The position numbers and the translations under genes were made by a program. Positions 17,937 to 43,689 of a stretch of 64,000 nt of DNA are shown piece by piece; position 1 is the stretch's first letter; each line of letters starts with the position of its first letter. The notes below the pieces were generated by a model, which made no database searches, was not told the origin of the DNA, and worked only from the letters and a program-made list of their open reading frames with translations. Location of the stretch: positions 49,406 to 113,405 of the forward strand of contig CAZFKS010000001.1 of the NCBI GenBank assembly GCA_964519725.1, written 5' to 3'. Source of the stretch: an uncultured Gammaproteobacteria bacterium. GTDB lineage: Bacteria; Patescibacteriota; Patescibacteriia; Magasanikbacterales; UBA922.

Positions 17937-18007
17937 GCGGGTATTGTATAATGGTAATACGCGACCTTCCCAAGGTTGAGTCAGGAGTTCGATTCTCCTT
18001 ACCCGCT
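17937..18007 (+). tRNA. tRNA-Gly(CCC)
   Basis: manual cloverleaf: acceptor GCGGGTA/TACCCGC, D-stem GTAT/ATAC, anticodon loop TTCCCAA, T-loop TTCGATT, discriminator U. Confidence 0.8.
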
Positions 18008-18028
18008 CTAATTTTTAACCATATTTCT

Positions 18029-18544
18029 ATGGAAACTCCTGCTGTAACTAGTGGTGATCGTACTCGGTACATTGCCGCTGGTGTAGGAATTATTATTTTA
18101 GCGGCAATTACAGCCATGGCGTTTAGTAATAAAGACGATGAACAAAAATCTGCTGACTCTGCGCCCACCAATACTACAGCTGAAGTAACCACTTCAACCA
18201 CGACGCCAAACACAACCACAGTGGATACGGGCGATAAAACCACCAATGTTAAAGCTAAACCAAAAACTGCCAAACCATTTGCTAGTTACCAAAAAGCTTT
18301 AGAAAGTTATCAATATAAATTCCAATTTGTTAATTGCACCGCAGTCCCAGCCAAGCTCACCTTTAAACAAGGTGTAAAAGTAATGTTAGACAACCGCGAT
18401 GCAGTTGCCCGCACCATTGGGATTGGTAACACCAAATATACCATTCAAGCTTACGACTTTGTCATTGCCACGGCTCCAGCCGCTGGTAATTATGCCCTCA
18501 CTTGCGCTGGCCGCACAGTGGGTGAAGTTAAAACCCAAAAATAG
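18029..18544 (+). CDS. membrane-anchored Thr-rich hypothetical protein
   Basis: ORF from ATG 18029 (upstream part of 17951 ORF overlaps tRNA-Gly); TM segment then T-rich linker. Confidence 0.35.
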   Translation: METPAVTSGDRTRYIAAGVGIIILAAITAMAFSNKDDEQKSADSAPTNTTAEVTTSTTTPNTTTVDTGDKTTNVKAKPKTAKPFASYQKALESYQYKFQFVNCTAVPAKLTFKQGVKVMLDNRDAVARTIGIGNTKYTIQAYDFVIATAPAAGNYALTCAGRTVGEVKTQK

Positions 18545-18586: not shown

Positions 18587-18659
18587 GCCGGTGTAGCTCA
18601 GTTGGTAGAGCGGCACATTCGTAACGTGCAGGCCACCAGTTCAATCCTGGTCATCGGCT
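18587..18659 (+). tRNA. tRNA-Thr(CGU)
   Basis: manual cloverleaf: acceptor GCCGGTG/CATCGGC (G5:U), D-stem GCTC/GAGC, anticodon loop TTCGTAA, T-arm ACCAG-TTCAATC-CTGGT. Confidence 0.8.
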
Positions 18660-18663
18660 CAGA

Positions 18664-18689
18664 AAAACACCCACTCGGGTGTTTTTTGC
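18664..18689 (+). terminator. rho-independent terminator ACACCCACTCGGGTGTTTTTT
   Basis: hairpin plus T-run read directly. Confidence 0.6.
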
Positions 18690-18693
18690 TGGG

Positions 18694-18722
18694 TTGACTT
18701 TTTCTTTCTACTATGGTATATT
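18694..18722 (+). promoter_or_regulatory. promoter TTGACT-17-TATATT driving the high-GC lipoprotein gene
   Basis: read directly; AT-rich native-like promoter, GGAG RBS 8 nt before ATG 18806. Confidence 0.5.
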
Positions 18723-18805
18723 GTTTTGTCCTGAACCAGCTTCTGTGAACTTTTATAAGTTTAGAGGAGCTGGGTCAGACCGAGCACAACCATTGGAGTC
18801 ATTCC

Positions 18806-19246
18806 ATGTACCGTTCCGTGCTCGTCGTTCTGTTCACCGTTCTCTCCACTTCCTGCACCACGACCCAGGTCGTCACCGACCCGCCGGCGCCCGCCTACGT
18901 CCGCGACCCGCGGCTCGGAGGCGACCCCGAGGCCCCGGAACCCGAAGTACTGAAGATCTTGGTGGAGCAGTTGAGCTCCGTTCCGGGCCTCTACCTCTTC
19001 AACCCGAAGAAGGGTGAGCTCGCCCCCGTGGAAAACGGCTACATCTACCGCTCGAAGGCGCACGTGATCACGACGATCACGGACCTGAGCGGAGAGTGGT
19101 ACTGCCAAGCCCGGGTGAGCTACTGGTTCACGAAGGACCAGACGAAGCGGTACTACTACCGCCTGAAGGGCTTCTCCATCAACGGCGGTGAGCCGTGCAG
19201 CCTGGAGCTACTCCTGAAGGACGAAGACCTGTCACCGCCCGACTAA
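18806..19246 (+). CDS. high-GC (~65%) secreted/lipoprotein-like hypothetical protein
   Basis: signal peptide MYRSVLVVLFTVLSTSC; GC3-rich codon usage unlike every neighbouring gene; alternative frames 18679..19017 and minus 18761..19108 are GC-frame artefacts. Confidence 0.45.
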   Translation: MYRSVLVVLFTVLSTSCTTTQVVTDPPAPAYVRDPRLGGDPEAPEPEVLKILVEQLSSVPGLYLFNPKKGELAPVENGYIYRSKAHVITTITDLSGEWYCQARVSYWFTKDQTKRYYYRLKGFSINGGEPCSLELLLKDEDLSPPD

Positions 19247-19293
19247 TGTCGCTCGTGAGTCGAGGCGACGCCGGCGCGGAGAACGAACACGAA

Positions 19294-19365
19294 AACCCGT
19301 TCGCCCGCCTGCTCTTAATCTAAATTTGGATTCAGAGCAGGAGGAAAAGCGAACGGGTTTTTTGT
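19294..19365 (+). terminator. large compound hairpin terminator (AACCCGTTCGC...GCGAACGGGTT + T-run)
   Basis: 11-bp outer stem with inner 8-bp stem, followed by TTTTTTG. Confidence 0.6.
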
Positions 19366-19484
19366 TTACGACTTAATATTAAGTCGATTTTTTATCTCAA
19401 TCTAAACAAAAATAAACTTTAAAATAATTAATATTTTCTTGAGGAAAATTTAAGCTGTACTTTGTTACTATTAATTTGGTGGAA

Positions 19485-37330: not shown

Positions 37331-37695
37331 GCGAAGACTTTGACCCAATTTACCAAGATTATATTTTAGATTTATATCGCCACCCACATAATCAGGGAGT
37401 AATTGAAAATGCGGACGCAAGTGCCGAAGAATTTAATCCATCTTGCGGGGACCGAATTAAATTAACCCTTAAATTCGCTGGTGATGTTTTGGTTGAGGTA
37501 AAACATAGTGGCCAAGGTTGTGCCATTTCTCAGGCTTCGGTTTCACTGTTAACTGACTTTGTAAAAAATAAAACGCGCGCAGAATTGAAAACTATGACTG
37601 AAGCTGAGGCCACGGAATTACTTGGTATTCCGATTAGCCATACCCGCCGCAAATGTGCCATACTAGGCTTCATAACCCTTCAAAAAGCCTTATGA
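37327..37695 (+). CDS. sufU: SUF-system Fe-S scaffold SufU (NifU-like)
   Basis: GDRIKLTLKF...GQGCAISQAS. Confidence 0.8.
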   Translation: MSEDFDPIYQDYILDLYRHPHNQGVIENADASAEEFNPSCGDRIKLTLKFAGDVLVEVKHSGQGCAISQASVSLLTDFVKNKTRAELKTMTEAEATELLGIPISHTRRKCAILGFITLQKAL

Positions 37696-38099
37696 ACTAT
37701 TGGTTAATGAAAACAGAGGCCAGCACTTTTTCCTGGGATGATTTGGTGAGAGATGGAGAGGCTGAATGGACGGGCGTGCGGAATTACGCGGCACGCAACC
37801 ACATGAAAGTTATGCAGGTTGGAGATGAAGTATTTATTTACCACAGCAATGAGGGCAAAGAAATTGTGGGCGTGGCGAAAGTTATTAAACTCGCACACCC
37901 TGACTCCACTGATAATACCGGCGTTTGGGAATGTGTAGACGTAGCGCCAGTGAGAAAATTAAACCGCGCCGTTTCACTAGAAGAAATTAAAAAGATACCT
38001 GAATGTAAACAAATGAAATTAGTTACTCATGGCCGTTTGTCAGTGCAGCCAGTGACCAAAGAAGAGTGGGAAACAATTATCAAATTGAGCGCTAAATAA
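37692..38099 (+). CDS. EVE (PUA-like) domain protein
   Basis: MNYWLMKTEASTFSWDDL...WTGVRNYAARNHM... typical EVE fold signature. Confidence 0.55.
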   Translation: MNYWLMKTEASTFSWDDLVRDGEAEWTGVRNYAARNHMKVMQVGDEVFIYHSNEGKEIVGVAKVIKLAHPDSTDNTGVWECVDVAPVRKLNRAVSLEEIKKIPECKQMKLVTHGRLSVQPVTKEEWETIIKLSAK

Positions 38100-38100
38100 T

Positions 38101-38826
38101 ATGTCACTAAAAATTTCACAATTAAAAATTTCGGTTGAAAATAAAGAAATTGTTCATGGTGTTACTTTGGAAGTGCAGCCTGATGAAGTGCACGTAATTA
38201 TGGGCCCAAATGGCAGTGGTAAATCAACCCTGGTAAATACGCTCGCTGGGCACCCAAAATATGCTGTGACCAATGGAACAATTTTGCTAGATAATGAAAA
38301 TATCACTGAAGCTAAACCAGAAGAGCGCGCTAAACTGGGCTTATTTTTATCACCCCAATATCCACCAGAAATTGCTGGGGTAAGTATTGCGAATTTTTTG
38401 CGCCTCGCCGTTGGCGCCAAGCGCGGTGTGAATTTAAATCCACTGGATTTTTACAAAGAGTTAAAAGCAGCCATGAAAAAATTAGACATTGATGAAAGTT
38501 TTGCCAAACGCGCGATTAACAGTGGTTTTTCTGGTGGTGAAAAAAAACGCGCCGAAATTTTGCAGCTCGCACTCCTCGAACCAAAGTATGCTTTGCTTGA
38601 TGAAACTGATTCTGGTTTAGATGTTGATGCACTCCGGATTGTCGGGGAGGGGATTAATAATTTTCAAAATCCTGAACGCGGAATTTTGCTCATCACGCAC
38701 TACGCGCGCCTACTTGAATATATCAAACCAACTCACGTGCACATTATGCGTGACGGCCAAATTATCAAAAGTGGTGGCCCAGAATTAGTGGCTGAAGTTG
38801 AAGCCGAGGGTTACACCAAGGTATAA
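38101..38826 (+). CDS. sufC: Fe-S cluster assembly ATPase SufC
   Basis: Walker A GPNGSGKST, signature FSGGEKKR. Confidence 0.85.
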   Translation: MSLKISQLKISVENKEIVHGVTLEVQPDEVHVIMGPNGSGKSTLVNTLAGHPKYAVTNGTILLDNENITEAKPEERAKLGLFLSPQYPPEIAGVSIANFLRLAVGAKRGVNLNPLDFYKELKAAMKKLDIDESFAKRAINSGFSGGEKKRAEILQLALLEPKYALLDETDSGLDVDALRIVGEGINNFQNPERGILLITHYARLLEYIKPTHVHIMRDGQIIKSGGPELVAEVEAEGYTKV

Positions 38827-38835
38827 TAAGAATCT

Positions 38836-39285
38836 ATGAAGCAAGAAATTATTGTCATGGATCACCGGCTCATTCGCTTTTTTAAATATCACAATAATAG
38901 TATTGCGCGTGTCGGTTTGTTTGTGATTTTCTTTTGGTTTGGGCTCCTGAAAGTTTTAAGTTTAAGTCCAGCCACACCTCTAGTCACAGCACTATACACT
39001 AAAATTTTTGGTACTATTGGCATGAGTGAATTTATGATTGGTTTTGGTGTATTTGAAATGTTAATTGGGATTTTATTTTTAATTAAAGGCGCGGAAAGAA
39101 TTGTGTTACCACTCTTGGCCGCACATTTATTCACCACGTTTTTACCCTTGATTTTATTACCTAATTTAGCCTGGACTGGAATTTTTGTGCCAACGCTTGA
39201 AGGTCAATACATTATCAAAAATTTGGCGTTAATTGCCGCAGCCGTGAGCGTGGGCGCACATTTGCACGAACTGAAAAAAGTATGA
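38836..39285 (+). CDS. hypothetical membrane protein (4 TM)
   Basis: hydrophobic segments only. Confidence 0.35.
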   Translation: MKQEIIVMDHRLIRFFKYHNNSIARVGLFVIFFWFGLLKVLSLSPATPLVTALYTKIFGTIGMSEFMIGFGVFEMLIGILFLIKGAERIVLPLLAAHLFTTFLPLILLPNLAWTGIFVPTLEGQYIIKNLALIAAAVSVGAHLHELKKV

Positions 39286-39569
39286 TCACTCGCGAAGCGA
39301 TTATTGAAGAATTAAAAAGAGTGTTTGATCCAGAAATTAATTTGGATATTTGGACCATGGGTTTGATTTATGAAATTAATATCAAAAGTGATAACGAGGT
39401 GCACATTCTCATGACCTACACCACGCCTATGTGTCCGTTTGGTCCAGATTTAAATCGTCAAATTGAAGAAAAATTACATGACCTCGGTTTTGAAAAAGTA
39501 GAAGTTGAGGTTACTTTTAATCCGCCCTGGAAAGCGAGCGACGAACTACGAACCATGCTAGGAATTTAA
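39282..39569 (+). CDS. DUF59/MIP18-family Fe-S assembly protein (SufT-like)
   Basis: ITREAIIEELKRVFDPEINLDIWTMGLIYEI. Confidence 0.6.
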   Translation: MITREAIIEELKRVFDPEINLDIWTMGLIYEINIKSDNEVHILMTYTTPMCPFGPDLNRQIEEKLHDLGFEKVEVEVTFNPPWKASDELRTMLGI

Positions 39570-39571
39570 AA

Positions 39572-39594
39572 AACTGCCGCGCGGCAGTTTTTTA
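39572..39594 (+). terminator. rho-independent terminator AAACTGCCGCGCGGCAGTTTTTT
   Basis: read directly. Confidence 0.6.
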
Positions 39595-39675
39595 TTTACC
39601 TTGATTTTTTATTATAAATAAGCTAAATTAAGCGCGCTTTGACAGCGTTTACCAAGGGGGTGAGCGACTTGTCGA

Positions 39676-40569
39676 ATGGGGGTATACATGAATCTCACAG
39701 TCGCGCCGACCGCCATTAAGGCGGTCAACGAAGCGCTCGAACACAACGACCGAGTGGGCTGGAAGCCCGCGCTCGGCCTCGTGCTCGGCACGGGCCTCGG
39801 CAAGGTTGCCGAGCTCGTCGAAGATCCCATCAAACTGCCTTTCAGCAAGCTGTGGCCCGAGGTCACCAGCAAACTGGAGGGGCACGCCAAGGAGCTCATT
39901 CTCGGCGACATCGGGGGTCTCCCGGTCGCGGTCTTCTCCGGACGGATCCACGGCTACGAGGGGTACGAGCCGAACGTCGTGGTTCAGCCGGTACTGCTCG
40001 CGCAGGCGCTCGCCGCCGAGAGCATCGTGCTGACGAACGCGGCCGGCGCCCTGAACACTGACCTGGCCAAGGGCCAGATCCTCGTGCTCAGCGATCATAT
40101 CAACCTCACCGGGCGCTCGCCGCTCAAGGGCCCGAACAACGAGGCCCTGGGCACGCGCTTCCCGGGACAGGGGGCCATCTACGGCCGCCACAAGGACCTG
40201 ACGGCCCGCGTCATGAGCGAGTTCAAGGCCACAGTCCTCAAATCGGGACAGATCGAGCCGCGCAACGGCGTCTATCTCGGGGTCAACGGCCCTGAATTCG
40301 AGACCCCGGCTGAGGTCAAGATGATGCGCGGCCTCGGCGCCGACGTCGTCGGCATGTCGACGGTCCACGAGGCCATCACGGCCAACTGGCTCGGCCTCGG
40401 CGTCATCGGCCTCAGTCTGGTGACCAATGCCACGGGCACGGCCCACGAAGAAGGCGAGATCTCGCACGCCGAAGTGCAGGAAGCCGGCCGAGAAGCTGGT
40501 CCTCGTCTCGTGAAGTTCACGAAGCTCCTTCTGGAGGCGTACCGCAAGGACGTCTTCAAGAAGAGCTGA
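39676..40569 (+). CDS. purine nucleoside phosphorylase (PNP/MTAP family), encoded in a ~65% GC island
   Basis: GTGLG P-loop-like, LTNAAG, VGMSTVHE motifs of PNP family 2; the 454-aa antisense ORF 39649..41013 is a GC-frame artefact. Confidence 0.7.
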   Translation: MGVYMNLTVAPTAIKAVNEALEHNDRVGWKPALGLVLGTGLGKVAELVEDPIKLPFSKLWPEVTSKLEGHAKELILGDIGGLPVAVFSGRIHGYEGYEPNVVVQPVLLAQALAAESIVLTNAAGALNTDLAKGQILVLSDHINLTGRSPLKGPNNEALGTRFPGQGAIYGRHKDLTARVMSEFKATVLKSGQIEPRNGVYLGVNGPEFETPAEVKMMRGLGADVVGMSTVHEAITANWLGLGVIGLSLVTNATGTAHEEGEISHAEVQEAGREAGPRLVKFTKLLLEAYRKDVFKKS

Positions 40570-40718
40570 AGGGCCGCTGTCTGTGCGCCCATCGCCCCTC
40601 CTCTCTGGGAGCGCCCGCGCGCTCCCACCCCAATCCTTTCTCTCCGCCCGCCAGGGTGGAGTTTTATTTAGGGTTTTACTTTTTCTAAAATGTGGTATTA
40701 TTGAGCTAATTATTTTAT

Positions 40719-41006
40719 ATGTCCGAACCAAAACTCCCTGATAATTTACCTGATGAAATTTCCCAAAAAATCCGCGCTGGCGGCAAAATCCGCCGCATTG
40801 TGGTTGATCGTCAAGCTTGCATTGGGGCGCGCTCGTGCGTAGTGGTAGCGCCCGGCGTCTTTCAAATGGACGACCAAAATTTGGCCTATGTGACTGATCC
40901 AGACGGAACTGACGAAGATACAATTTTGATGGCCGCGCAATCGTGTCCAGTGCTCGCGGTAAAATTGTACGACGAAGACGGGAAACAAATTTTTCCTGAA
41001 GAATAA
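40719..41006 (+). CDS. ferredoxin (Cys-x-x-x-x-Cys ... CysPro type)
   Basis: CIGARSC...AAQSCPV cluster ligands. Confidence 0.6.
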   Translation: MSEPKLPDNLPDEISQKIRAGGKIRRIVVDRQACIGARSCVVVAPGVFQMDDQNLAYVTDPDGTDEDTILMAAQSCPVLAVKLYDEDGKQIFPEE

Positions 41007-41015
41007 AAAACAAAA

Positions 41016-41037
41016 ATCCGCTCGAGGCGGATTTTTT
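41016..41037. terminator. bidirectional terminator ATCCGCTCGAGGCGGAT flanked by A- and T-runs (ferredoxin / clpB)
   Basis: read directly. Confidence 0.55.
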
Positions 41038-41049
41038 AATTGCTGAATT

Positions 41050-43689
41050 TTATTTAATTATTAATTTTTCCTTTTCCACATCAACTTTTACGCTTTGCCC
41101 CTCAAGAGCTTCGCCTGAAACAATCTTCATAGCTAGGGGATCGAGCAGTTCAGTTTGAATAACACGCTTCAGTGGGCGCGCACCTAGGTTTGGGTCATAG
41201 CCTTTTTTGGCCAGCCAATCTTTGGCCTCAACTGAAACTTCCAGTGAAATTTTTTGTTTAGCCAAACGCGCCGCCACAATCGCGATTTGTTTGTCTACAA
41301 TTGAACGCACTTGTTCCTCAGCGAGTGGATGGAAAACAATGATTTCATCAATGCGGTTTAAAAATTCTGGTTTAAAATAATCTTTGAGGGCGTCGCGCAC
41401 CTTGGTATTCATTTTTTCTTCTTGCGCTTCGCTACTAGCACTTTTCTTTTTATCATTAAACCCAAAATCACCGCGGCGACCCATTTCCATGATCACTGAG
41501 CTCGCAATATTACTGGTCATAATGATCACTGTATTTTTGAAATTCACTTTACGGCCCTTGGCATCAGTCAGGTGACCATCTTCCAAAATTTGAAGCATGA
41601 TGTTGAAAATATCTGGATGGGCCTTTTCCACTTCATCAAACAAAATCACCGAGTATGGTTTGCGGCGAATAATTTCGGTCAGTTGGCCACCCTCATCAAA
41701 CCCAACATACCCAGGCGGGGAGCCAATGATCCGGGACACTGCGTGTTTTTCCATGTATTCAGTCATGTCCACGCGGACCAAAGCCTCGTCATCATTGAAC
41801 AAAAATTCAGCCAGTGATTTGGCCAGCTCAGTTTTTCCCACGCCAGTTGGTCCCATGAAAATAAAGGAACCAATCGGGCGCTTTTCTTCCGCAATCCCAG
41901 CGCGGGAACGGCGAATAGCATTGGAAACTGCAGTAATTGCTTCGTCCTGACCAACTACGCGCTGACGCAGTTCATCTTCCATGCGCGTGAGTTTTTTAGT
42001 TTCATCTTCTAACATTTTTGCGACTGGAATACCAGTCCAGCGCGCGACCACCGCCGCAATGTCTCGCTCAGTGACTTCTTCTTTTAAAATCCCACGCGTT
42101 TTTTGAATGTCTAATAGCTTATCTTGTAATTTTTGAATTGCTTCCTCAGTGGTCGGAATTTTTCCGTAACGAATTTCCGCCACTTTTTGCAAATCACCGC
42201 GACGCTCTTCAATTTCGGCTTGTTGTTTTAATTTATCAATTTCTTTTTTGTAATCACGAATCTTAGTAATAATTTCTTTTTCATTTTGCCACTGCATTTC
42301 TAGGGCCTGAGTTTTTTCTTTTAAATTCGCGAGTTCTTCTTTTAATTTTTGTTGGCGTTCGCGTGACTCAGCATCATCTTCTTTTTTAAGGGCACGCAGT
42401 TCAATTTCAATTTTCATGGCCTGACGTTTCATTTTATCTAGGTCATCAGGCATGGAATCAATTTGCATTTTGAGGGCAGACGCGGCTTCGTCAATTAAAT
42501 CAATCGCTTTATCAGGTAAAAAACGGTCAGTAATATAACGGGTCGATAAAGTCACTGCCGAAACTACGGCTGGGTCAGTAATGCGTACACCGTGGTGGAC
42601 TTCGTATTTTTCTTTAATCCCACGCAAAATTGCGACCGCATCATCTTCATTTGGTTCATTCACAGTGACCGGTTGAAAGCGACGTTCAAAGGCCGCATCT
42701 TTTTCAATGTGTTTTTGGTATTCTTTAAGCGTGGTAGCGCCAATAATATGCAGTTCACCACGCGCGAGACCAGGCTTTAACATGTTGCTGGCATCAACTG
42801 CCCCGTCAGACGAACCAGCCCCAACAATGGTGTGCAGTTCATCAATAAATAACACCACCTTACCGCGCGCTTCAGTAATTTCTTTAATTACGGCTTTAAA
42901 CCGTTCTTCAAACTCACCGCGGAATTTTGTGCCGGCAATTAACGCCCCAATATCAAGCGAAATAATTTCTTTATCTTTTAAGTTTTCTGGGACATCACCA
43001 TTCACAATTCGTTGTGCTAAGCCCTCGGCGACAGCGGTTTTACCTACACCTGGTTCACCAATTAACACTGGATTATTTTTAGTGCGGCGAGTTAAGACTT
43101 GCATCACGCGGCGAATTTCATCATCCCGCCCAATTACTGGATCAAGTTTTTCTTTGCGCGCGCGATCAGTTAAATTAATTCCATATTTTTCCAGGGCCTG
43201 ATATTTACTTTCTGGTTCTGGTGAGTCCACGCGCTGATTACCCCGAATCGTGGCCAGGGTTTTTAAAATATCTTTGTAATTTACCCCCTGACGCGAGAGT
43301 GCGTCACTAATGGGATTTTTATTACCCAAAAAGGCGAGTAATATGTGCTCCACACTAATGTACTCATCATGCATTTTGCGCGCCTCTTGGTCAGCTGCTT
43401 GCAAAATATACATGGTGGCCTGACCTAAGAGCACTTGACCAACAGTGCGCGGGCCCATGAGTTCACCTTGCTTAGGTAGAGAATCAATTAAATTTTGAAC
43501 CTCATCACTCAGCTGTTCCGTATTGACGTTTAATTTTTTGAGCGCTGACAAAACCACACCCTCTTCTTGATCTAAAAGGGCCAAGAATAAGTGAGGTGGT
43601 TCAACTTGCGGCTGACCATTTAAACTGGCAATTTCTTGCGCGGCCTGAATCGCTTCTTGAGATTTATGGGTAAAATTTTGTGGGATCAT
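41050..43689 (-). CDS. clpB: ATP-dependent chaperone ClpB
   Basis: two AAA+ modules ([16 protein letters not shown]), coiled-coil middle domain. Confidence 0.9.

What the first reader, a model, noticed from the sequence alone, without database searches (positions are those of the whole stretch)
39630..40660. High-GC (~65%) island encoding a purine nucleoside phosphorylase
Directly after the terminator of the SufT-like gene, about 1 kb of ~65% GC DNA encodes a complete PNP/MTAP-family purine nucleoside phosphorylase (39676..40569) with GC3-saturated codons. A perfect GC palindrome GGGAGCGCCCGCGCGCTCCC follows at about 40608. The composition then snaps back to about 35% GC. The long antisense ORF (454 aa) is a composition artefact. 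A salvage enzyme acquired from a high-GC donor, for example an actinobacterial-type PunA, would fit a reduced-genome organism dependent on nucleoside scavenging.
Basis: partly seen in the sequence, partly recalled or inferred. Interest (0 to 1): 0.6.

Follow-up and report, generated by a model that had tools for sequence, protein, structure and literature searches.

The report
GC-rich swappable purine phosphorylase gene
A tiny-genome bacterium (Candidatus Magasanikbacteria) carries a real, intact purine-salvage gene whose DNA is far more GC-rich than the rest of its genome. Close relatives carry very different versions of the same gene, other genes, or nothing at the same spot, so it is an exchangeable accessory cassette and not a one-off recent import from an actinobacterium.

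Summary
Window 39630-40660 is 65.3% GC against 42.7% elsewhere (not 35%). It encodes a complete trimeric-type purine nucleoside phosphorylase (PNP) with GC3 of 86%, and all catalytic residues are conserved. It is not an assembly chimera: a second assembler gives an identical 3.3-kb contig across both borders, and three contigs from other samples show the same kind of junction.

The host is a Candidatus Magasanikbacteria (Patescibacteria). The gene sits in the SUF iron-sulfur cluster, between sufT and a ferredoxin gene.

The "recent gift from a high-GC actinobacterium" reading is only partly supported.
- No protein among about 15 billion is more than 49% identical to it.
- It fails the PunA equivalog cut-off.
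- Close relatives hold two other GC-rich PNP alleles in the same slot. These are only 42-48% identical in protein, yet they share a homologous promoter, 5' UTR hairpin and two-hairpin 3' end.
- Another close relative holds two unrelated low-GC genes there, and more distant relatives hold nothing or a small 2Fe-2S ferredoxin.

Best reading: a replaceable accessory cassette, exchanged through conserved flanks. It belongs to a fast-evolving PNP lineage whose five known members all sit in lower-GC contexts. Why it stays GC-rich is unresolved.

The parts
39282..39569 (+). sufT-like gene (FeS_assembly_P). It is the upstream conserved flank of the variable slot.
   Evidence: PF01883, E 1.1e-15. It is 75-76% identical in L014 and L086.
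39567..39594 (+). Intrinsic terminator of sufT (CTGCCGCGCGGCAG core plus T-run).
   Evidence: Terminator scan. The hairpin is kept with different stem sequences in L014 and L144.
39601..39629 (+). Promoter-like element TTGATT-17 nt-TAAATT for the PNP unit (inferred). The GC rise begins just after it.
   Evidence: Read from the sequence. Conserved in L014 (TTGATT/TAAGTT) and L144 (TTGCTT/TAAATT). It matches only 8 of 12 consensus positions, so the consensus scan did not flag it.
39632..39683 (+). 5' UTR hairpin, homologous in all three alleles up to the start codon.
   Evidence: MFE -22.9 kcal/mol, z -3.55. RNAalifold gives 16 pairs, 3 of them with compensatory changes across three sequences. 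No Rfam family matches.
39688..40569 (+). Purine nucleoside phosphorylase CDS, 293 aa. The mechanical ORF starts at 39676 and gives 297 aa.
   Evidence: PF01048 and NF006054 above cut-off. PDB PNPs match at E down to 1.3e-57. Active-site residues are conserved. GC3 is 86%.
40606..40627 (+). 3' UTR hairpin 1: 9-bp GC stem, 4-nt loop, no T-run.
   Evidence: Fold. Its sequence is conserved in L014 with one G-U change. L144 has a different 14-bp hairpin at the same place.
40642..40669 (+). Intrinsic terminator of the PNP unit (8-bp stem plus TTTTATTT). It marks the 3' end of the GC-rich stretch.
   Evidence: Terminator scan and fold. L014 and L144 have equivalent hairpin plus T-run elements.
40672..40702 (+). 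Conserved ferredoxin promoter region (GGTTTTAC...TGgTATTAT). It marks the downstream edge of the variable slot.
   Evidence: Near-identical in L014, L145 and L144. Absent in L086.
40719..41006 (+). 4Fe-4S single-cluster ferredoxin gene. It is the downstream conserved flank.
   Evidence: PF13370, E 1.5e-12. It is 95-97% identical in L014 and L086.

Best explanation
**What it is.** The island is a genuine single-gene transcription unit: promoter, structured 5' UTR, CDS, 3' hairpin and terminator. It encodes a catalytically intact trimeric-class, 6-oxopurine-type purine nucleoside phosphorylase. By inference it splits (deoxy)inosine and (deoxy)guanosine with phosphate into the free base plus (deoxy)ribose-1-phosphate, feeding purine and pentose salvage in a Candidatus Magasanikbacteria cell.

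**How it got there.** It occupies a replaceable accessory slot in the SUF gene cluster, between sufT and a ferredoxin gene.
- Among close relatives the slot holds at least three deeply divergent GC-rich PNP alleles that share homologous regulatory framing.
- Other relatives hold two unrelated genes, a small 2Fe-2S ferredoxin with or without a GIY-YIG nuclease gene, or nothing.
- The whole cassette is therefore exchanged between related genomes, most simply by homologous recombination through the conserved flanks.
- The PNP cassette entered this locus once and has since diversified and circulated. It was not freshly captured from an actinobacterium.

**Deep origin.** Its source lies near PNPs of high-GC bacteria (Chloroflexota-like). 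It now belongs to a fast-evolving lineage found only in lower-GC genomes.

**Shown versus inferred.** Shown: gene identity, real join, slot variability, allele divergence, shared UTRs. Inferred: promoter use, recombination mechanism, enzyme activity, single origin.
For: **Identity of the gene**
- Family assignment.
- All 15 checked active-site positions are conserved or conservatively replaced in the three alleles.

**The join is real**
- Logan contig SRR11567520_7279 is 100% identical to window 37724-41067.
- L014, L145 and L144 come from other samples and show the same architecture.

**The slot is variable**
- Across 40 sufT-fdx loci, only the window and L014 carry a PNP, and only their spacers exceed genome GC.
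- L086 carries two unrelated low-GC ORFs, although its SufT is about 98% identical to L014's.
- L002 has a 51-bp empty spacer.

**The alleles are deeply divergent**
- They are 42-48% identical in protein, and their 4-fold synonymous sites match about as often as composition alone predicts.
- By contrast, L144 matches L014 in the about 80 nt of flank available: 1 mismatch in 47 nt of sufT, and an identical fdx promoter.

**The cassettes share ancestry**
- The promoter and 5' UTR align without gaps up to the start codon in all three alleles.
- A hairpin with 3 compensatory pairs is predicted for the three 5' UTRs.
- The 3' hairpin is shared by the window and L014.
- All three keep the two-hairpin 3' architecture.
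- In the neighbour-joining tree L014+L144 group in 96 of 100 bootstraps, and all three in 55 of 100.

**The protein evolves fast**
- The 98.9%-identical pair L014/L145 differs by 8 non-synonymous and 3 synonymous changes, giving pN/pS 0.86.

**The lineage sits in lower-GC contexts**
- L146 PNP is 55% GC against 40% upstream. L147 PNP is 60% against 46%.
Against: - Grouping of the window allele with the other two has only 55% bootstrap support in a distance tree, and all three are long branches, so long-branch attraction is possible.
- By HMMER score the window allele is closer to the high-GC cluster (247 bits) than to L014. It did not appear among L014's listed hits, which ended at about 213 bits.
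- No donor genome carrying a closer cassette was found. No recombination junction has been seen directly, because L144 and L145 are only about 1.2 kb long.
- Only four contigs carry a PNP in this slot.
- If the cassette has lived for long in about 42% GC genomes, ordinary mutation pressure should have lowered its GC3. It has not, and this explanation does not account for that.
Confidence: 0.6

Rival explanations
1. First reader's reading. A single, recent horizontal transfer of a PunA-type gene from a high-GC donor such as an actinobacterium. The gene has not yet ameliorated.
For: - GC3 is 86% against 35-46% in neighbouring genes.
- The nearest outside relatives lie on 68-72% GC contigs.
- A second single-gene unit in the same window (18806-19246) has the same GC3, 88%, which would fit one shared donor.
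Against: - No protein more than 49% identical was found in 5.8 billion clusters or 1.84 billion representatives.
- The PunA equivalog TIGR01698 cut-off is not reached.
- Relatives carry other alleles at the same slot with homologous promoter and UTRs, so the cassette predates this genome.
- Amino-acid composition (GARP 0.31, FYMINK 0.21) is already far from that of the high-GC relatives (0.38-0.42 and 0.09-0.14).
- The second island is an orphan with no homologue at all.
Confidence: 0.12
2. Repeated recent imports from unsampled, moderately high-GC (55-65%) relatives, for example high-GC Magasanikbacteria or other Patescibacteria, that carry the same sufT-PNP-fdx locus. Crossovers would fall in the conserved AT-rich regulatory sequences at the cassette edges. 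This is a sub-variant of the best explanation that also accounts for the GC content.
For: - GC boundaries coincide with the promoter and terminator.
- High-GC Magasanikbacteria exist and keep AT-rich spacers: L002 is 56% GC with a 29% GC spacer.
- GC3 of 73-86% and the amino-acid composition resemble genes at equilibrium in 55-65% GC genomes. That comparison rests on general knowledge; the figures are.
- GC3 is equal in invariant and variable columns, as expected for a composition inherited from a donor genome and not for codon selection.
Against: - All five known members of the PNP clade sit in lower-GC contexts, and none sits in a high-GC genome.
- The one high-GC Magasanikbacteria locus found has an empty slot.
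- No closer homologue exists in the searched collections.
Confidence: 0.3
3. Assembly or binning chimera. A fragment of a high-GC organism was joined into a low-GC contig.
For: The composition changes sharply at both borders.
Against: - An independent assembler (Logan) produced a 3,344-bp contig 100% identical across both borders.
- L014, L145 and L144, from other samples, have a GC-rich PNP joined to the same low-GC sufT and fdx flanks.
- The borders fall at a terminator, a promoter and a terminator, not at arbitrary points.
Confidence: 0.02
4. The PNP-fold protein is part of an anti-phage or nucleotide-depletion defence module. This would explain its rapid turnover in a hotspot.
For: - The slot turns over among close relatives, as defence hotspots do.
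- pN/pS is 0.86 in the recent pair.
Against: - The PNP and the L086 slot ORFs have no PADLOC match.
- The protein passes the housekeeping PNP equivalog cut-off and keeps the complete 6-oxopurine active site.
- No partner genes are present. The unit is monocistronic between its own promoter and terminator.
Confidence: 0.04

Closest known systems
Trimeric (low-molecular-mass, NP-I fold) purine nucleoside phosphorylases: NCBIfam NF006054 / TIGR01697 PNPH-PunA-XapA subfamily. The best solved match is PDB 8swu_A.
   Same: - Full-length match above both curated cut-offs.
- E 1.3e-57 to 8swu_A, with similar matches to Thermotoga, bovine and human PNP chains.
- Phosphate, ribose and base-binding residues are conserved, including Asn243, which goes with 6-oxopurine specificity (the role of Asn243 is from general knowledge).
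   Different: - At most 49% identical to any known sequence.
- Below the cut-offs of the narrower equivalogs TIGR01700 (PNPH), TIGR01698 (PunA) and TIGR01699 (XapA).
- Thr replaces Ser at position 33.
- It lies on a long branch.
PNPs of high-GC Chloroflexota / Candidatus Limnocylindrales-type genomes, found in a MoaA-PNP-ThyX gene context.
   Same: They are the nearest outside sequence neighbours, with Kimura distance 0.78-0.9 and 45-49% identity. They are also GC-rich.
   Different: - Those genes match their genome's composition (68-72% GC) and keep a conserved synteny.
- They differ little from one another (median distance 0.29).
- The window's gene sits in a 43% GC genome, in a different context, and is far more diverged.
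Replacement-type flexible genomic islands, in which the same locus holds divergent non-homologous or highly divergent alleles in close strains, swapped through conserved flanks. O-antigen and capsule loci are examples (from general knowledge).
   Same: - Same chromosomal slot between conserved genes.
- Close relatives differ completely in its content (PNP alleles at 42-48% identity, unrelated ORFs, or empty).
- No integrase and no flanking direct repeats.
   Different: - The cargo is one cytoplasmic salvage enzyme, not a surface-structure gene cluster.
- The alleles keep homologous promoter and UTRs.
- The cargo is strongly GC-enriched relative to its host.

Membership tests
Trimeric purine nucleoside phosphorylase (NF006054 / TIGR01697) | Full-length PNP_UDP_1 (PF01048) domain. 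| tested here: met
   E 1.9e-37; residues 33-286 match profile positions 2-232 of 233.
Trimeric purine nucleoside phosphorylase (NF006054 / TIGR01697) | Score above the curated cut-offs of the equivalog and subfamily models. | tested here: met
   NF006054: 263.7 bits against 218. TIGR01697: 243 against 197.1. The alleles in L014 and L144, and P0231 and P0236, also pass.
Trimeric purine nucleoside phosphorylase (NF006054 / TIGR01697) | Active-site residues, in human PNP numbering: S33, H64, R84, H86, Y88, N115, A116, E201, M219, S220, T242, N243, H257. | tested here: met
   All are conserved in the window allele except S33T.
Trimeric purine nucleoside phosphorylase (NF006054 / TIGR01697) | Phosphorolysis of inosine and guanosine; homotrimer. 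| not testable with these tools
   Needs enzyme assays and structural work. No structure prediction was run.
   217.7 bits. TIGR01700 (229 against 293.35) and TIGR01699 (148.7 against 370.9) are not met either.
Horizontally acquired genomic islet | Composition and codon usage deviate from the host genome. | tested here: met
   65.3% against 42.7% GC. GC3 is 86% against 35-46% in the neighbouring genes.
Horizontally acquired genomic islet | Patchy presence among related genomes at an otherwise syntenic locus. | tested here: met
   PNP is present in 2 of 40 sufT-fdx loci, plus two short contigs. Empty or other content elsewhere.
Horizontally acquired genomic islet | The gene phylogeny places it inside a donor lineage. 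| tested here: inconclusive
   Long-branch clade sister to a high-GC cluster. At most 49% identity to anything. Distance tree only.
Horizontally acquired genomic islet | Mobility signatures: integrase or transposase, flanking direct repeats, tRNA target. | tested here: not met
   No convincing direct or inverted repeats bracket the island. The adjacent genes are sufT and fdx. No match in viral contigs.
Known anti-phage defence proteins (PADLOC-DB) | Match to a defence-system model. | tested here: not met
   No PADLOC family at E up to 0.01.
Known cis-regulatory RNA or riboswitch (Rfam 15) in the 5' UTR | Covariance-model match at or near the gathering score. | tested here: not met
   Only chance-level hits, all far below gathering scores.

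The most novel reading that the evidence does not exclude
The GC-richness is not a leftover of recent transfer. It is an actively maintained property of this PNP lineage. A fast-evolving clade of PNP genes lives in low-GC (about 40-46% GC) Patescibacteria-like genomes, at three or more different chromosomal sites. It keeps GC3 at 60-86% through divergence deep enough to bring synonymous-site matches down to the level composition alone predicts. That would imply a gene-specific GC-favouring force working against genome-wide AT pressure, for example selection on the mRNA or strongly GC-biased repair linked to frequent cassette exchange.
Probability: 0.22. Interest if true: 0.75.

Novelty: new variant of a known kind. 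Interest (0 to 1): 0.5.

Why it matters
- **Metabolism.** Patescibacteria are thought to live on scavenged nucleosides. This shows that a core salvage enzyme can be an exchangeable accessory gene, not part of a fixed complement.
- **Annotation and binning.** Sharp GC islands in these small genomes are often removed as contamination. This one is real and recurs in several samples.
- **Genome evolution.** Close relatives carry protein alleles only 42-48% identical inside a conserved regulatory frame, and all of them are GC-rich in AT-rich genomes. That is an unusually clean case for asking two things: how cassettes are swapped in organisms with few mobile elements, and whether amelioration always proceeds as assumed.

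Tried and rejected
**Chimeric join.** Rejected.

**Flanking repeats or att-like sites.** None convincing.

**Riboswitch or known RNA in the UTRs.** No Rfam match.

**Defence function.** No PADLOC match.

**Phage or viral carriage.** No relative in IMG/VR.

**Vertical co-divergence of the window and L014 alleles.**
- This was tested with 4-fold synonymous sites. The excess match (51% against 38%, z 2.6) is no larger than in unrelated control pairs (z 2.5-2.8).
- It was therefore not used as evidence.

**Localised hypermutation of the CDS.** The recent pair L014/L145 differs at 11 of 870 CDS positions and 3 of 372 flank positions, which is no clear excess.

**Mosaic recombination inside the CDS.** No block structure appears among the three alleles.

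**Codon selection for translational accuracy.** GC3 is the same in invariant and variable columns.

**Coding antisense ORF.** No Pfam match, and not conserved in L014.

**More strains via exact Fdx and SufT look-ups.** Only the same Logan contig was returned.

**Taxonomy of L146 and L147.** Could not be established.

**Literature.** Searches found nothing on PNP cassettes or GC islands in Patescibacteria.
Full report
**1. Observation**

- The stretch 39630-40660 is 65.3% GC, against 42.7% for the rest of the 64-kb window. One-kb windows outside it average 42.8% (sd 2.5, maximum 54.8).
- ORF 39676-40569(+) is present. Its GC at codon positions 1, 2 and 3 is 68, 42 and 86%. Eight neighbouring genes have GC3 of 35-46%.
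- The ORF matches PF01048 end to end. It scores 263.7 bits on the NCBIfam purine-nucleoside phosphorylase equivalog NF006054 (cut-off 218) and 243 bits on the PNPH/PunA/XapA subfamily TIGR01697 (cut-off 197.1). It stays below the narrower PNPH, PunA and XapA equivalogs.
- Solved PNP structures match at E values down to 1.3e-57.
- Thirteen residues that define the phosphate, ribose and base sites of human PNP are conserved, apart from a Ser33-to-Thr change. The reference sequence for that comparison was recalled from memory.
- The sequence GGGAGCGCCCGCGCGCTCCC lies at 40607-40626. It is a hairpin with a 4-nt loop, not a perfect palindrome.
- The 454-aa antisense ORF has no family match and is not conserved in a related locus.

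**2. The join is real**

- The identical protein occurs on Logan contig SRR11567520_7279. That contig is 100% identical to window 37724-41067 and so crosses both borders. It probably derives from the same sample, so this is a second assembler and not a second sample.
- Independent samples do, however, give the same architecture (section 4).

**3. Host and neighbourhood**

- ClpB-anchored loci from GTDB species genomes identify the host as Candidatus Magasanikbacteria (Patescibacteria). ClpB is 91% identical to that of MAG CTOTU14220 (L014) and 82% identical to that of GW2011_GWA2_56_11 (L002).
- The island lies inside a SUF iron-sulfur cluster region, in this order:
  - SufB, SufD, SufS, SufU
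  - an EVE-domain gene
  - SufC
  - a 149-aa membrane protein
  - SufT
  - [PNP]
  - a 4Fe-4S ferredoxin
  - ClpB, convergent

**4. The slot is variable and holds several PNP alleles**

- L014 is 42% GC. Its Fdx is 95%, SufC 85% and SufT 76% identical to the window's. It carries a 60% GC PNP in the same place and orientation, but the protein is only 45% identical to the window's. L145, from another assembly, is a 98.9%-identical copy of that allele with the same flanks.
- L144, from a further run, begins in the sufT 3' end and ends in the ferredoxin promoter. The sufT segment has 1 mismatch in 47 nt against L014, and the promoter segment is identical to L014's. Between them sits a third allele, 58% GC with GC3 of 74%. 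It is 48% identical to L014's allele and 42% identical to the window's.
- L086 has a SufT about 98% identical to L014's and an Fdx 97% identical to the window's. It carries two unrelated low-GC ORFs in the slot.
- Across 40 sufT-fdx loci, some of them redundant:
  - 11 have spacers of 171 bp or less.
  - 21 have spacers of 302-642 bp, mostly holding a thioredoxin-like 2Fe-2S ferredoxin gene.
  - 3 add a GIY-YIG nuclease gene.
  - Only the window and L014 carry a PNP, and only their spacers exceed the GC of their genome.

**5. The cassettes share regulatory framing**

- Upstream, all three alleles align without gaps from the sufT terminator to the start codon. The terminator stems differ but remain paired. 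The alignment then runs through a promoter-like TTGATT-17-TAAATT and a roughly 55-nt 5' UTR.
- RNAalifold predicts a 16-pair hairpin for the three UTRs, with three compensatory pairs. The window's UTR folds at -22.9 kcal/mol (z -3.55). Three sequences are too few to prove a conserved structure.
- Downstream, the window and L014 share the GGGAGCGC...GCGCTCCC hairpin. All three alleles have one hairpin without a T-run, followed by a hairpin with a T-run, followed by a near-identical ferredoxin promoter.
- The GC-rich stretch therefore coincides with the predicted transcript. The start codon aligned with L144's is ATG 39688.

**6. Relationships of the protein**

- The best hits among 5.8 billion clustered proteins are at most 49% identical. 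Their names, where given, are Chloroflexota, Candidatus Limnocylindrales and Binatia.
- Three of these hits lie on 68-72% GC contigs, in a MoaA-PNP-ThyX context.
- An exhaustive profile search of 1.84 billion representatives gives 504-520 bits for the three alleles themselves and at most 285 bits for any other single-domain protein.
- Kimura distances between the alleles, and from them to the other 225 PNPs retrieved in the two searches, are about 0.8-1.05. Those 225 differ from one another by a median of 0.29.
- In a neighbour-joining tree with 115 diverse representatives:
  - L014+L144 group in 96 of 100 bootstraps.
  - All three alleles group in 55 of 100.
  - Together with P0231 and P0236 they form a long-branch clade sister to the high-GC cluster.
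- Both extra members also sit in lower-GC contexts, at other genomic sites. L146 PNP is 55% GC against 40% upstream. L147 PNP is 60% against 46% and follows a tRNA-like 3' end.
- All five proteins pass the PNP equivalog cut-off.

**7. Tempo of evolution**

- Four-fold synonymous sites between alleles match about as often as composition predicts. The modest excess for window against L014 (z 2.6) is matched by unrelated control pairs, so it is not used as evidence.
- The flanking genes of the window and L014 are well short of that level: 43-54% of their 4-fold sites match, against 26% expected, except in the membrane gene (29% against 24%).
- The recent pair L014/L145 differs by 8 non-synonymous and 3 synonymous changes (pN/pS 0.86). 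The mutation density in the CDS shows no clear excess over the flanks. The protein therefore evolves fast, but there is no sign of local hypermutation.
- GC3 is the same in invariant and variable columns. Amino-acid composition lies between that of host proteins and that of the high-GC relatives.

**8. Interpretation**

- The data exclude a chimera.
- They make a one-off recent transfer from a sampled high-GC donor unlikely.
- The shared promoter, UTRs and 3' architecture argue that the three cassettes descend from one cassette established at this locus.
- The near-identity of the L014 and L144 flanks, set against alleles that match at 4-fold synonymous sites only as often as composition predicts, and the different content in L086, require replacement of the whole cassette between relatives. 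Recombination in the conserved flanks or regulatory ends is the simplest route (inferred, not observed).
- The function is purine nucleoside phosphorolysis for salvage. This is inferred from family membership and an intact active site.

**9. What remains unexplained**

- It is unclear why every known member of this PNP lineage is 13-22 GC points above its surroundings.
- One possibility is that the cassettes are repeatedly imported from unsampled 55-65% GC relatives. This fits the sharp borders and a composition typical of such genomes, but no such genome was found.
- The other possibility is that GC-richness is maintained within low-GC genomes. This fits five of five members lying in low-GC contexts, but it has no known mechanism.
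- A second unit in the window (18806-19246) has GC3 of 88% and encodes an orphan lipoprotein-like ORF. It shows the same compositional class. It could come from the same unknown source.

**10. Verdict**

This is a real, functional-looking PNP gene in a replaceable slot of a Magasanikbacteria genome. The gene itself is ordinary. The pattern is moderately interesting: hyper-divergent, persistently GC-rich alleles inside a conserved regulatory frame.

Noticed in passing
window 18661-19370: A second single-gene GC-rich unit lies directly after tRNA-Thr(CGU) at 18587-18660. It has an AT-rich promoter-like stretch, a 146-aa ORF (18806-19246) and terminator-like hairpins. The ORF is 62.8% GC with GC3 of 88% and has a lipoprotein-type signal (…LSTSC). 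It has no Pfam or PADLOC match and no homologue other than itself in 5.8 billion proteins. The Logan assembly of SRR11567520 also contains it.
   Followed up: partly
window 24667-25086: Rfam finds a group I intron at 24667-25038 (77.6 bits against a gathering score of 50). With introns allowed, ARAGORN calls a tRNA-Thr(UGU) at about 24679-25086 with a 333-nt intron in the anticodon loop. This looks like an intron-split tRNA gene.
   Followed up: partly
window 37653-38099: An EVE-domain gene (PF01878, E 5.6e-48) sits inside the SUF cluster between SufU and SufC. It overlaps the end of SufU by about 40 nt and is conserved at 79% identity in L014 and L086.
   Followed up: no
L013 5034-5369 and 7177-7506 (also L091, L096): In about 35% GC Magasanikbacteria, the same sufT-fdx slot holds a GIY-YIG nuclease gene next to a thioredoxin-like 2Fe-2S ferredoxin gene. 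A second GIY-YIG copy lies about 2 kb away. Such a nuclease could be a source of breaks that promote turnover at this slot.
   Followed up: partly
L014 1680-3680 compared with window 41007-41049: Between ClpB and the ferredoxin gene, L014 carries about 2 kb with three extra ORFs (281, 163 and 200 aa). In the window the two genes are separated only by a 44-bp spacer that holds a terminator-like hairpin called on the ClpB strand. This is a second variable spot next to the first.
   Followed up: no
L086 4026-4912: In place of the PNP there are two low-GC ORFs with no Pfam or PADLOC match: a 135-aa predicted membrane protein and a 147-aa protein. The sufT terminator and the ferredoxin promoter seen in the window and L014 are both missing.
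   Followed up: partly
L146 530-630: A run of short imperfect repeats (AGCACTTTAGCAC / GGAGCAC / GAGCAC units) lies between a helicase-like gene tail and the terminator that precedes another GC-rich PNP.
   Followed up: no
window 17937-18544: The mechanical ORF 17951-18544 (197 aa) overlaps tRNA-Gly(CCC) at 17937-18008. Its true start, if it is a gene, must lie further downstream.
   Followed up: no
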